A stretch of DNA of 64,000 nucleotides from Octopus vulgaris (taxonomy: Eukaryota): contig OX597825.1 of assembly GCA_951406725.2 (NCBI GenBank), positions 6,138,001 through 6,202,000 on the forward strand, in the 5' to 3' direction. This document shows positions 36,821 through 42,700 of this stretch, in pieces. Numbering within the stretch: the first letter of the stretch is position 1; each line of letters starts with the position of its first letter. The notes beneath the pieces were generated by a model. That model had not been told where the DNA came from, ran no database searches, and saw only the letters and a program-made list of their open reading frames with translations. A program made the position numbers and the translations under genes.

Positions 36821-38683
36821 CATATATGTATATACACCTATATACAATGGTCTTCTTTCACTTTCTTTCTACCACGCCCACTCACAAGGCTTTGGTCAGC
36901 CTGAGGTTATAGTTGAAGACACTTGCTCAAGGTGTCATGCAGTGGGACTGAACCTGGAACCATGTGGTTGGGAAGCAAGCTTCTTACCATGCAGCCACTC
37001 CTGCACCTATGGTTATTTCTCATCTCTATCAAAACTATACTCCAGTATTTTTAAAATGTCAATTATTTTTATGTATATTTTCTGTCTTTTATGGATGAAA
37101 AATGCTTGAATTCCATCAGCTGCAGTGCAGGAGGAGAGCAGTATTTTAAAGGAGAGCCTGGTGCACCCTTCTGGTTTGCCAGTCCTCTGTCGAACCATCC
37201 AGCCTATGCCAGCATGGAAAGTGGACGTTAAACGACGACGACGACGATGATGATGATGATGATACAAGGAAACAAGGACTACCTCTTTGACACCAGCAGC
37301 ACAATAAATAAAACCATTTCTTACACTGGTAAGAAATAGGGATGGTTTCCAGTCATCAGAACCATACACCATCCCCCCCACCACACTATCATCATCATCA
37401 TCATCATCATTTAGCATCCGCTTTCCATGCTAGCATGGGTTGGACGGTTCAACTGGGGTCTGGGAAGCCAGAAGGCTGCACCAGGCCCAGTCTAATCTGG
37501 CAATGTTTCTACGGTTGGATGCCCTTCCTAACGCCAACCACTCTGTGAGTGTAGTGGGTGCTTTTTACGTGACACCGGCACAGGTGCCAGACGGGGCTGG
37601 CAAACGGCCACAGACAGATGGTGCTTTTTATGTGCCACCGGCACGGGGACCAGGCAAAGCTGGCAATGGCCATGATCGGATGGTGCTTTTTATGTGCCAC
37701 CGGCACGGAGGCCAGTAACTGTCTATAAACACTATCTATACGCATACGTGTGTGTGTATGTATATCTGTGTTTGGGGGAATGTGTATATTCTTTTACTGT
37801 GGCCATGCTGGGGCACAGCCTTTAGTTGAACAAATCTACCCCAGGGCTTATTCTTTGTAAGCCTAGTACTTATTGTATTGGTCACTTTTGCTGAACCGCT
37901 AAGTTACAAGGACGTAAACACACCAACATTGGTTGTTAAGCAATGGTGAGAGGACAAACACACACAAATACATACATACATACATACACACATACATAGA
38001 TGCATACATACATACATACATACAATGGGCTTCTTTCAGTTTCTGTCTACCAAATCCTCTCACAAGGCTTTGGTCAGCCCGAGGCTATAGCAGAGGACAC
38101 TTGCCCAAAGTGCCACACAATGTGCTTAGAAAAGAGCAAACAGTAATAAATGGACTTGGTCGAAATGAATTTGATTCTACCACAAATGATAAAATTAAAA
38201 CTAAATCTGAGAGAAATATAAAAAAATTATCTTTGCAATTGTTCCAAACAGGAATCCGGTTATGTGAAAAATAAGTGTATGACTAAAAATGTGATATATA
38301 GATGTAAAGTTACATCTTAGGTTAATGAATACTTTTACATCAGTGCAGCATCATTAATATTCAAGATGAGACTGGCAAATTAGAAATAATTACAAAAGAT
38401 TCCAAGCAAATCTTAGCAGATTTCCACTTTTTTCTTATTTTTATTGTCCTAAAATTTTCGTTGCATCTTGCAATCTTTTCAATAGTTTTGACTCTATTGA
38501 AAAGATTACAAGACGCAACAAAAATTTTAGGACAATAAAAATAAGAAAAAAGTGGAAATTTTACCGGTGAGTGTGTTACATAATAAGGAACAAAAAGAAA
38601 ATGACTCTCCCCAGACACAACAGAATATGCTACAACACACGAACTCATATAAAGAATCTTGCAAACCAAATCCAAAAACCAAA

Positions 38684-39056: not shown

Positions 39057-39405
39057 GATCTTTTCGCTTTGACCGGCAGATTTTTAAAATAATTTCTTTG
39101 TAACTAAACACTTATAAACTTCGTATACAGGTAGAATGTGTTTATAAAACATATTTTTCTCTTGGCTTTCTTGAAAAAATACTGTAGTTTGTAAGCTGTT
39201 TGTTGTTTAATTTCTTGCATTTCGGCAATTTCAACCAATCAATGACGTCTATCAAACAACAAATAGCTTACAAACTACAAAATTTTCTCAAGAAAGCCAA
39301 GAGAAAAATGTGTTTTTTAAACACATTCTACCAGTATACGAAGTATAAAAGTTTTTAGTTATAAAGAAAATATTTTAAAAATCTGCCGGTCAAAGTGAAA
39401 AGATC
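39057..39405. mobile_element. Foldback MITE with about 150-bp terminal inverted repeats
   Basis: GATCTTTTCGCTTTGACCGGCAGATTTTTAAAATA... and ...TATTTTAAAAATCTGCCGGTCAAAGTGAAAAGATC, with a spacer of about 45 nt. Confidence 0.85.
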
Positions 39406-39687: not shown

Positions 39688-40122
39688 GTAAGTTAATTAT
39701 TTCCGTTTCTTAATCAAAATAAATCAACTTTTTGCAGTTTAAGTGTATTAACAGGATTTAAGTGTATCAACATAAATCATAATTCCATTTAATAAGCTTT
39801 TTATTTCATTTCTTTTGAGACTTTTACGAAGAATCCGACCTCCTCTGGTCTCAGGTTCCTCTCAAAAACCATTTCCAGGTCTGGAGACGTCGAATTCTTC
39901 AATAATTTCAGTTTTAAATAATGGAAACGGTTAAAAAAATGAATTGGGAATTGGTTAGGGACTAAAGTTCTGTTTTCCAAATTGAAAATTCGTTTCGAAA
40001 TTGTTTACTTAAAGGAAAAGCGCCGAACCTTCTTTGAGATGGAATCACTGAAGACAGAATAAATTTTGATCTGATTTGAAAGGAATTCCTTGCTTGCGGT
40101 GGTGATCGATATTGAAAATGCC

Positions 40123-40341
40123 GGTACTACTCGAGAACAGTGGTCCTGGTGCGCGCACTCGCGCTAGCTAGTCGTGACTAGTCGATCCTACAAACGACTA
40201 CATAGCAAAAGTAAATAAAACACAAAGTAAATCATTTTTATTAAACGAAGTAAATAAAACACAAAAACACAGTAAGGATCGACTAGTCACGACTAGCTAG
40301 CGCGAGTGCGCGCACCGGGACCACCGTTCTGAAGTAGGACC
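40123..40341. mobile_element. 219-bp inverted-repeat element (67-bp TIRs, GG...CC ends) between 127/128-bp direct repeats
   Basis: TIR GGTACTACTCGAGAACAGTGGTCCTGGTGCGCGCACTCGCGCTAGCTAGTCGTGACTAGTCGATCCT and its near-perfect reverse complement. Direct repeats are at 39995-40122 and 40342-40468. Confidence 0.85.
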
Positions 40342-41768
40342 TCGAAATTGTTTATTTAAGAAAAAGCACCGAACCTTCTTTGAGACGGAATCACTGAAGA
40401 CAGAATAAATTGTGATCTGATTTGAAAGGAATTCCTTGCTTGAGGTGGTGATCGATATTGAAAATGCCATAGTTTATTGTTCAGAATTAATGATTGTATT
40501 GGTTATATGCTGCTGGAATCATCGAAGAATTAAACAAAATCCTTTCTTCTTTGGTTCTTGCATTCCTTGTTGATCCGATCTGATGGTTGGCGGCAATTTA
40601 TTATAAGCAATCTGTTTTGTGGAAGGTGTTTATAAGCCATTTCAGAAACACAAAAACCGTTAAATTCACTTCAACATTTTAAATTTAAATGTATATATTA
40701 TGATGGACTTTGCAGATGTACCTACGTGAACACACAGGTACATGAATACATACACACGCACACTAATACATATGTGACTTTTGGAACACCAAGGAGAGAA
40801 AAGGGCACCAAGCAAAGAGGCGGGGTTTGTTAAGTTGACGGCAGTTTCTGTACGTACGTACATGCATAGGTACATACGTACATATAGGCGCAGGAGTGGC
40901 TGTGTGGTAAGTAGCTTGCTTACCAACCACATGGTTGTGGGTTCAGTCCCACTGCATGGCACCTTGGGCAAGTGTCTTCTACTATAGCCTCAGGCCGACC
41001 AAAGCCTTGTGAGTGGATTTAGTAGATGGAAACTGAAAGAAGCCCGTCGTATATATGTATATATATGTGTGTGTATATGTTTGTGTGTCTGTGATTGTCC
41101 CTCTAGCATTGCTTGACAACCGATGCTGGTGTGTTTATGTCCCCGTTACTTAGCTGTTCGGCAAAAGAGACCAATAGAATAAGTACTGGGCTTTCAAAGG
41201 AATAAGTTCCGGGGTTGAGTTGCTCGATTAAAAGGCGGTGCTCCAGCATGGCCACAGTCAAATGACTGAAACAAGTAAAAGAGAAAGAGAAATACGTACG
41301 TTTATACGTAAACATACACGTTTGTTCCTTCTCGAGCCATGCCTGGCTCATAAGGGCCGGTTTCCTTGGCGTATAGGTTCCCCACCTGGATGCCGGTCTG
41401 TCGCAGGTGAGCTGCAAGATGCAGGAGGAAAGAGTGAGAGCAGAAGTTCGCCATTACCTTCTGCCGCGTGGAGCTTAGGTGTTTTGCTCATAAACACACA
41501 CATCGCCCTGTCTGAGATTCGAACCTGCATTCCCTCGACCGCGAGTCCGCTACTCTAACCACTAGTCCATGTACCTCCACACACATACACCACACCACAC
41601 ATACATCTTATCAAAGGTAGCTTAGAAGTGGTTCTTCATTGAGTGTGCAGATATACATTAAGACAGATAATGAACAAAAAAGACAGGTAATTGTTCAGTT
41701 TAATGATATAAAAAAACTAAATAAAATGAAGGGGGAGGAGATAAGTAGTAAAAGAAGCCGCTTACTTT

Positions 41769-42140
41769 TTATACAACATAAAAACTGGTGGTCGCCACCA
41801 GAAAGTGAACAAATGTCTTTTTTTCCTCAGTAGAAGTACAACAGAGAAACAATTTGTCTGATGTCCCAAACTGTCGTCTCAACTTCCGTGTCATCCACAT
41901 ATTTTCCACATTTTGTGTCTGGTTGTCTTGATCATGAGGATCAACAAAATATTGGTGTATAACCACCTCCTGCATGTAGACACCACCGTTGAGGATAGCG
42001 ATGTTATTATATGCTCGCCATCCATCGCTGACTATGACCCTGGCAAAATCCACCTTTGTATTAATTAGCTCAGGTAAAGTTTCTTCTGCACGATCAGGTA
42101 CTTCTACCTAAAAACACTTTCTTGGCCATCGAATACCCAG
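41769..42140 (-). mobile_element. Merlin (IS1016/IS1595-like DDE) transposase remnant
   Basis: Encodes VIVSDGWRAYNNI...VIHQYFVDP...TQNVENMW...KLRRQFGT, matching the SDxWxAY / FVDP / TQxxExxW pattern. Confidence 0.8.
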
Positions 42141-42700
42141 TGTCCCTTTTCGTCTTTTTCTACTTATTTATCCATAATTTTGGATCAAATCCTGGCAGGG
42201 ACACTAGCTAGAAGCAGGATAATAATCTAATTCTTCACTTTATCACATTCAAGAATATAAACACGTTTTTAAACACAACATACGTGGAGTGAAAAAGAAA
42301 CACCACCTTTCACCAGCACTGTGCAAACCACAGTGTTCTCTCTCCCTAGCATGAAGCTTCCTGTCTTGCACATATGAGCATGTGCACAACAGCCAAGCAC
42401 ACAGTTCTATACAAGGATTTTTGTATTTTTTTCATAAACCAGGGGATGGCTACTGACATAAGCTTCAGGATTATATAATGTACAAGTATAAAGAAAGAAT
42501 TAAAGGACTCATTATATTGAATGTTATCGATAATATCAAGTGGAAATAGGGGGTGCTGCAGTTCCCCAGAGCCTACACACAAGCTACCATTGCTGAAATA
42601 TCAAGACTTGGCATAGTGGTATGTTTTTTTTTTCGTTTTGAAATCTTAAATATTTCTTGTTTTTTTAAAATTTGTCTTTTCAGATATCCTGATATTCACT

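What the first reader, a model, noticed from the sequence alone, without database searches (positions are those of the whole stretch)
39995..40468. Inverted-repeat element flanked precisely by a 127/128-bp direct duplication (giant target-site duplication?)
Seen: DR1 (39995-40122) and DR2 (40342-40468) differ at about 7 positions and abut, with no gap, a 219-bp element with 67-bp CpG-rich TIRs ending GG...CC. The TIRs differ at about 5 positions and contain nested palindromes (GCGCGC, GCTAGCTAG, GACTAGTC). Established: DNA-transposon TSDs are normally about 2-11 bp, and Merlin TIRs start with GG and make 8-9 bp TSDs. A Merlin transposase remnant lies 1.3 kb away. Inference: either an insertion mechanism with widely staggered nicks, or a one-off rearrangement such as alternative transposition, re-insertion with duplication, or recombination between alleles with nearby insertions. 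The mismatches argue against an assembly duplication.
Basis: partly seen in the sequence, partly recalled or inferred. Interest (0 to 1): 0.72.

Follow-up and report, generated by a model that had tools for sequence, protein, structure and literature searches.

The report
Merlin MITE with long flank duplications
A small jumping-DNA element (a Merlin MITE) sits exactly between two copies of a 128-base stretch that is single in a related species; about 4 in 100 sampled copies of this element show such long duplications instead of the usual 8-9 bases, likely left by a recurring mis-step of its transposase rather than by a new way of inserting.

Summary
A 219-bp element with 67-bp TIRs is flanked flush by 128/127-bp direct repeats with 7 differences. 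It is a Merlin MITE: hundreds of copies exist, transposase-bearing relatives share its TIR, and 148 of 207 copies with both ends have ordinary 8-9-bp TSDs. So a giant TSD is not the family's rule.

It is not a one-off either. Eight other copies of the 207 sit in flush 31-195-bp duplications (about 4%), and three more turned up among one-ended copies. Only 5 of 27,362 control positions look like this. A more distant species holds the window's unit once, without the element. Three species labels share the left junction, so this is no assembly artefact.

The family also shows a flush 420-450-bp deletion and one element-unit-element duplication of the maize alternative-transposition type.

Best reading: recurrent aberrant transposition, most likely re-insertion of one element end a short way off (hybrid-element insertion, 0.5). 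A single insertion with uncoupled ends remains open (0.3). Known kinds of event, not found reported for Merlin in my searches, at a notably high rate.

The parts
39995..40122 (+). DR1, first copy of the 128-bp duplicated unit, flush with the element's left end
   Evidence: junction in contigs of organisms A, B, D
40123..40341 (.). 219-bp non-autonomous Merlin MITE
   Evidence: many copies; alignment of 24 copies; transposase-bearing relatives with the same TIR and 8-9-bp TSDs
40123..40189 (+). left TIR, 67 bp, starts GG
40275..40341 (-). right TIR, 67 bp, 5 mismatches to the left TIR
40342..40468 (+). DR2, second copy of the unit (127 bp), flush with the element's right end; runs into the right flank with no inserted letters listed against the outgroup contig

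Best explanation
This is a Merlin MITE whose flanking 128-bp duplication was likely made by its own transposase in a recurring aberrant reaction, most likely hybrid-element insertion (alternative transposition). Step 1 (inferred): the MITE inserts normally with an 8-9-bp TSD. Step 2 (inferred): after replication the transposase pairs one end of this copy with the opposite end of the sister copy and transfers them to a site 128 bp away on an element-free homologue or on the repaired sister. One product is flank-unit-element-unit-flank, as here. The reciprocal product is an intact element with a flush deletion and no TSD. Shown: the Merlin identity, the normal TSD, the recurrence of long flush duplications, single-unit empty sites for two cases, one documented flush deletion, and one element-unit-element duplication. 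That the events are transposase-made at all, by either this route or rival 1, I put at about 0.8.
For: Both junctions end exactly at the terminal GG/CC in this and most other cases. Recurrence: 9 of 207 both-ended copies; 8 of 203 (3.9%, 95% CI 1.7-7.6%) after removing the query and 3 repeats of one insertion. Control: 5 of 27,362. The pre-insertion state is a single unit, in an outgroup contig for the window's site (X16) and in a paralogue for L018 (L302). Reciprocal class: inside a hAT element the MITE with intact ends and no TSD replaces 422-451 bp that are present in MITE-free paralogues L410 and L419. At L002 a neighbouring repeat is cut flush, and the continuation seen in 21 paralogues is missing. 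17 of 207 copies have intact ends and no duplication. L003 has two sister elements: one with the TSD on both sides, one sharing it on one side only. That is the structure described for maize alternative transposition (PMC3744419 section 10). L018 has 4 extra bases at the end of DR2 against its paralogue, a possible excision footprint. Duplicate-pair divergence (5.5% here; 1-19% across the nine) is of the order of TSD mismatch (79 of 1290, 6.1%, biased low) and TIR divergence from consensus (5.6%), so the duplications date from the element's active period.
Against: No allele with the element at the same junction and an ordinary TSD (the predicted parent) was seen in the 7 runs laid. No inverted flank duplication was found among 50 no-TSD copies apart from SINE and microsatellite matches. 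All sizes are short (31-195 bp; 8 of 12 lie at 31-47), and none was found between about 200 bp and the 1.2-2.9-kb flank limit; P-element and Ac events are often far larger (Ac 8 kb to >5 Mb). No footprint is visible at the window's site or by eye at most others. L003 is a single case and could be a plain tandem duplication. Flush deletions also arise by ordinary adjacent deletion, and only 2 of the no-TSD copies could be tested against paralogues.
Confidence: 0.5

Rival explanations
1. One insertion with uncoupled ends. The two element ends are joined to opposite target strands tens to hundreds of bases apart, and strand-displacement fill-in copies the stretch between them: a true long TSD. 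Reversed polarity would give a flush deletion. It is an occasional mode of a transposase that normally staggers by 8-9 bp.
For: Short sizes clustered at 31-47 bp (8 of 12). No footprint at the window's site against the outgroup. No parent allele seen. Two cases have one exact end and one truncated end (L126, L287), as expected if the host repaired the second end. Bacterial precedent by title: IS1549 and IS1634 make long direct repeats (reference list). A Dup-IS-Dup without TSD arose de novo for IS481.
Against: Does not yield L003 (two elements, TSD retained on one) or a footprint at L018. The truncated ends can be later deletions: 2 of 89 one-ended copies is no higher than the rate among both-ended copies.
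Confidence: 0.3
2. Unequal crossing-over between two alleles that carried the MITE at nearby sites (a local hop, then homologous recombination through the element). This also gives duplication and deletion products with exact ends.
For: The same anatomy is predicted. Two sites where only one repeat copy shares the outgroup letter (40412 in organism A DR2; 40434-equivalent in organism D DR1) could mean that DR1 and DR2 came from different haplotypes.
Against: It needs two insertions within 30-200 bp segregating together, at about 4% of loci, and crossovers within about 230 bp of homology. Two sites are within what parallel mutation could give.
Confidence: 0.12
3. Host replication or repair at the element's strong hairpin: a template switch or break repair duplicates the flank after a normal insertion, with no transposase in the second step.
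For: The TIRs form a very stable hairpin. Two cases have one truncated end.
Against: It does not explain base-exact junctions at both termini in most cases, and it needs two switches to leave out the second element copy.
Confidence: 0.08

Closest known systems
Merlin superfamily (IS1016/IS1595-related DNA transposons) and their MITEs
   Same: GG...CC TIRs, 8-9-bp TSDs in most copies, DDE_Tnp_IS1595 transposase in relatives with the same TIR
   Different: About 4% of copies carry 31-195-bp flush duplications. The Merlin survey passages I read (PMC8101967, 12 of 26 places shown) mention only 8-9-bp TSDs.
P-element hybrid element insertion and Ac/Ds alternative transposition (tandem direct duplications)
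   Same: Duplications and reciprocal deletions with a breakpoint exactly at an element end; L003 matches the two-element structure in PMC3744419
   Different: Here mostly one element between the copies, sizes of tens of bases, and a rate near 4%. Maize had 3 of 7611 hAT insertions, but under different structural criteria, so the rates are not directly comparable.
Bacterial IS1549 and IS1634 (long, variable direct repeats) and the IS481 Dup-IS-Dup event
   Same: A DDE element flush between long direct repeats of variable length
   Different: Different transposase families. I saw only the titles for IS1549/IS1634; their size ranges (tens to hundreds of bp) are recalled. The IS481 duplication is about 60 kb.
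Long TSDs of non-LTR retrotransposons (R9 126 bp; Dualen median 900 bp)
   Same: Element flanked by a long duplicated target (PMC9977147 passage)
   Different: RNA-based target-primed mechanism; this element has TIRs and a DDE partner

Membership tests
Merlin superfamily | TIRs of 24-462 bp with terminal GG (PMC8101967) | tested here: met
   67-bp TIRs, GG...CC
Merlin superfamily | 8- or 9-bp TSD | tested here: met
   Family level: 106 nine-bp and 42 eight-bp of 207, allowing up to 2 mismatches; chance rate 423 of 27,362. This particular copy has none.
Merlin superfamily | DDE_Tnp_IS1595 transposase in elements with the same TIR | tested here: met
   L159: PF12762 E=5.7e-20 with a matching left TIR. 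Among 30 related loci, L184, L185, L190, L202, L204, L206, L209, L210 and L211 have both TIRs and an 8-9-bp TSD. All seen copies are broken or partial; no intact autonomous copy of this family was identified.
MITE | Short, non-coding, TIR-bounded, many copies, derived from an autonomous family | tested here: met
   414 exact matches to one 33-bp internal motif alone; ends and subterminal repeats shared with transposase-bearing copies
Element class that makes long TSDs as its rule (IS1549/IS1634-like) | Most insertions flanked by long, variable direct repeats | tested here: not met
   9 of 207
Hybrid element insertion / alternative transposition | Rearrangement breakpoints exactly at element ends | tested here: met
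Hybrid element insertion / alternative transposition | Reciprocal flush deletions | tested here: inconclusive
   One clear case, one likely (L002); 17 untested or partly tested candidates; rival 1 and adjacent deletion predict them too
Hybrid element insertion / alternative transposition | Parent allele with a normal TSD, and exchange of flanking markers | not testable with these tools
   Only contigs of 7 runs could be laid; no phased population data

The most novel reading that the evidence does not exclude
This Merlin transposase has a second, built-in insertion mode in which the two ends integrate independently tens to about 200 bp apart, with a preferred spacing near 45 bp. About 1 insertion in 25 then makes a true long TSD, and a similar share a flush deletion: a eukaryotic cut-and-paste counterpart of bacterial IS1549/IS1634 long direct repeats.
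Probability: 0.3. Interest if true: 0.72.

Novelty: new variant of a known kind. Interest (0 to 1): 0.5.

Why it matters
In the papers I saw Merlin is described from sequence surveys, and I recall no biochemical study of it. A countable fossil series of short flush duplications and deletions at about 4% of insertions gives a direct handle on how its two ends are coordinated. It also shows that a MITE family can seed many small duplications and deletions in a large animal genome, and that TSD-based annotation will miss or mis-bound such copies. The kinds of event are known from P, Ac and some bacterial IS elements, which caps the surprise.

Tried and rejected
Assembly artefact: rejected (7 differences; junctions in independent contigs).

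Insertion into an older tandem repeat: rejected (no 8-9-bp TSD, no third unit, single unit in the outgroup). Copies in microsatellites or tandem arrays (L013, L096, L110, L224, L269, L276, L290, L296, L297) were set aside for this reason.

Unit as part of the element: rejected.

Neighbouring Merlin remnant as the partner: unlikely.

My first reading was that organisms B and C lack the element. One search overturned it for B (same sample, junction present). The single-unit contig in organism C (depth 5.5) may be a graph collapse or a later loss, so it is not counted. The outgroup contig (depth 68) could in principle be a collapse too.

The first controls were too loose, since tandem repeats passed; they were replaced.

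A target-site preference test on junction 9-mers was uninformative (weak profile).

Two other Merlin families in hand showed no long duplication, but only 9 elements had both ends located: too few.

Six-frame translation of the flanks showed no open gene; they were not scanned against Pfam.

No RNA holder listed.

Earlier findings: none.

Literature searches found no report of long flush duplications for Merlin. The library lacks most subscription papers, supplements were not read, and three primary papers were not held.

Full report
1. Observation. The window lies in a 2.8-Gb, 227-contig genome; that it is an octopus is my inference from size and recalled repeats. DR1 (39995-40122) and DR2 (40342-40468) align end to end with 6 substitutions and 1 indel and abut the 219-bp element without a gap. 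The TIRs are 67 bp with 5 mismatches. A genome search with the left flank plus DR1 returned only DR1 and DR2.

2. What the element is. A DNA search gave 1532 candidates, of which 40 were scored, and one internal 33-mer has 414 exact matches. Copies share GG...CC ends and differ by 8-bp modules in the TIR. A PF12762 search gave 150 matches. One of the 30 loci fetched, L159, has this TIR directly upstream of a Merlin transposase frame (E=5.7e-20). Searching with it gave 30 loci, of which 9 have both TIRs and an 8-9-bp TSD. One of them (L190) lies about 38 kb from the finding, outside the window. The element is therefore a Merlin MITE by the definition in PMC8101967 (passages). The remnant 1.3 kb away is a weak Merlin match of another family.

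3. Census. I examined 310 loci. 14 were dropped as duplicates by shared flank; some of these are separate places that share a SINE or host-element flank. That left 296, of which 207 had both ends recognisable. Classes: 106 with a 9-bp TSD, 42 with an 8-bp TSD, 9 with a long flush duplication, and 50 other. The nine are L035 (31 bp), L392 (35), L109 (42), L258 (45), L059 (44-48), L003 (70, with the element duplicated too), L018 (120), the finding (128) and L371 (195, with a microsatellite expansion in one copy). Among the 89 copies without two recognised ends, three more were found: L270 (47 bp, complete but with a nested SINE), L126 (40 bp, left end truncated) and L287 (45 bp, right end truncated). 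Leaving out the query and three repeats of one insertion gives 8 of 203, 3.9% (95% CI 1.7-7.6%). Of 27,362 overlapping pseudo-elements in the same flanks, 114 passed the same rule. In all but 5 the similarity ran on into the pseudo-element, i.e. tandem repeats; 8 of the 9 real cases are bounded by the element. Limits: copies were picked by exact motif, so less decayed copies and contigs C1-C5 are over-represented; flanks were 1.2-2.9 kb; the shortest cases (L035, L392, 81-83% identity) are the least secure.

4. Empty sites and age. A contig of organism E, about 9% diverged, runs left flank, one unit, right flank with no element and no listed insertion at the junction. The DR1-element junction is in contigs of organisms A, B and D, and unit-to-right-flank contigs exist in A, B and D. 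For B and D these fit either the duplication or a heterozygous empty allele. Organism C gave a single-unit contig at low depth, which is inconclusive. Several DR1/DR2 differences (40008, 40040) are private to the assembly. For L018, paralogue L302 has one unit between the same flanks. Duplicate divergence is of the order of TSD and TIR decay. The duplication thus arose with or soon after the insertion and is old.

5. The other class. Of the 50 others, 15 have a SINE or a second TIR beside an end, 8 have a damaged end, 6 have a decayed short TSD, 4 are copies of one insertion carried in a larger element, and 17 have intact ends and no duplication. For the carried insertion, 26 of 30 host loci have the MITE and 4 lack it. 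In two of those the MITE's two flanks are 422 and 451 bp apart, so the MITE replaced that stretch with both ends intact. The lost stretch reads like a hAT transposase C-terminus (motif recalled). At L002 an adjacent repeat is cut flush. A paralogue test recovered the expected -9 overlap at many ordinary TSD sites, which validates the method.

6. Mechanism. Exact ends, recurrence and both signs of rearrangement point to the transposase. I favour hybrid-element insertion (0.5) because it yields all three structures seen: the single element between repeats, the flush deletion, and L003. In L003 one element keeps both TSDs and its sister shares one, as described for maize (PMC3744419, passages and section 10). 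It also explains a possible 4-bp footprint at L018. Against it: no parent allele, no inverted products, and uniformly short sizes. A single insertion with uncoupled ends (0.3) fits the size cluster and the usual lack of footprints but not L003. Unequal crossing-over between nearby insertions (0.12) and hairpin-driven template switching (0.08) are less economical. All mechanistic steps are inferred.

7. Known relatives and novelty. Precedents are P and Ac alternative transposition, bacterial IS1549/IS1634 (titles only; the same paper's table lists 5-6 bp as typical for the IS1634 family), an IS481 Dup-IS-Dup (PMC11708052, passages), and long TSDs of non-LTR elements (PMC9977147, passages). PMC3053259 and PMC2528002 (passages) added nothing. 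Nine searches found no such report for Merlin, within an open-access library and without supplements. Verdict: real, recurrent, a new variant of known aberrant transposition; interest 0.5.

Noticed in passing
L010, L022, L084, L123, L149, L150, L240 (element ends): A common SINE-like repeat repeatedly ends exactly at the MITE's terminal GGTA. In L010 it sits inside the left TIR with about 18 bp of the TIR duplicated, which suggests targeting or 3' microhomology at the TIR.
   Followed up: partly
L217, L024, L358, L368, L393-L422: One MITE insertion with a flush 420-450-bp deletion lies inside a hAT-like element that was later amplified: 26 of 30 fetched host loci carry it.
   Followed up: yes
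window 41800-42260, - strand: Degraded Merlin transposase remnant of another family (PF12762 E=0.0017).
   Followed up: yes
L167, L168, L170, L171, L181; L313, L318: Two further Merlin-type families with other GG...CC TIRs and clean 8-bp TSDs.
   Followed up: partly
L153-L158, L165: A family with a 308-aa open frame matching PF12762, in repeats of about 3 kb that are 92-99% alike; ends not located; possibly recent.
   Followed up: no
window 39057-39405: Another inverted-repeat element with 155-bp arms, 91% complementary; also smaller ones at 38420-38559 and 37156-37486.
   Followed up: no
window 40600-40690: Very high-copy repeat ends just right of the finding (depth table).
   Followed up: no
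window 40412 and 40434: At each site one repeat copy of one species shares the outgroup letter while the other copies do not: parallel mutation, or different source haplotypes for DR1 and DR2.
   Followed up: partly
MITE TIR interior (alignment A2): The TIRs carry 0-2 extra 8-bp CG-rich modules that vary independently at the two ends.
   Followed up: no
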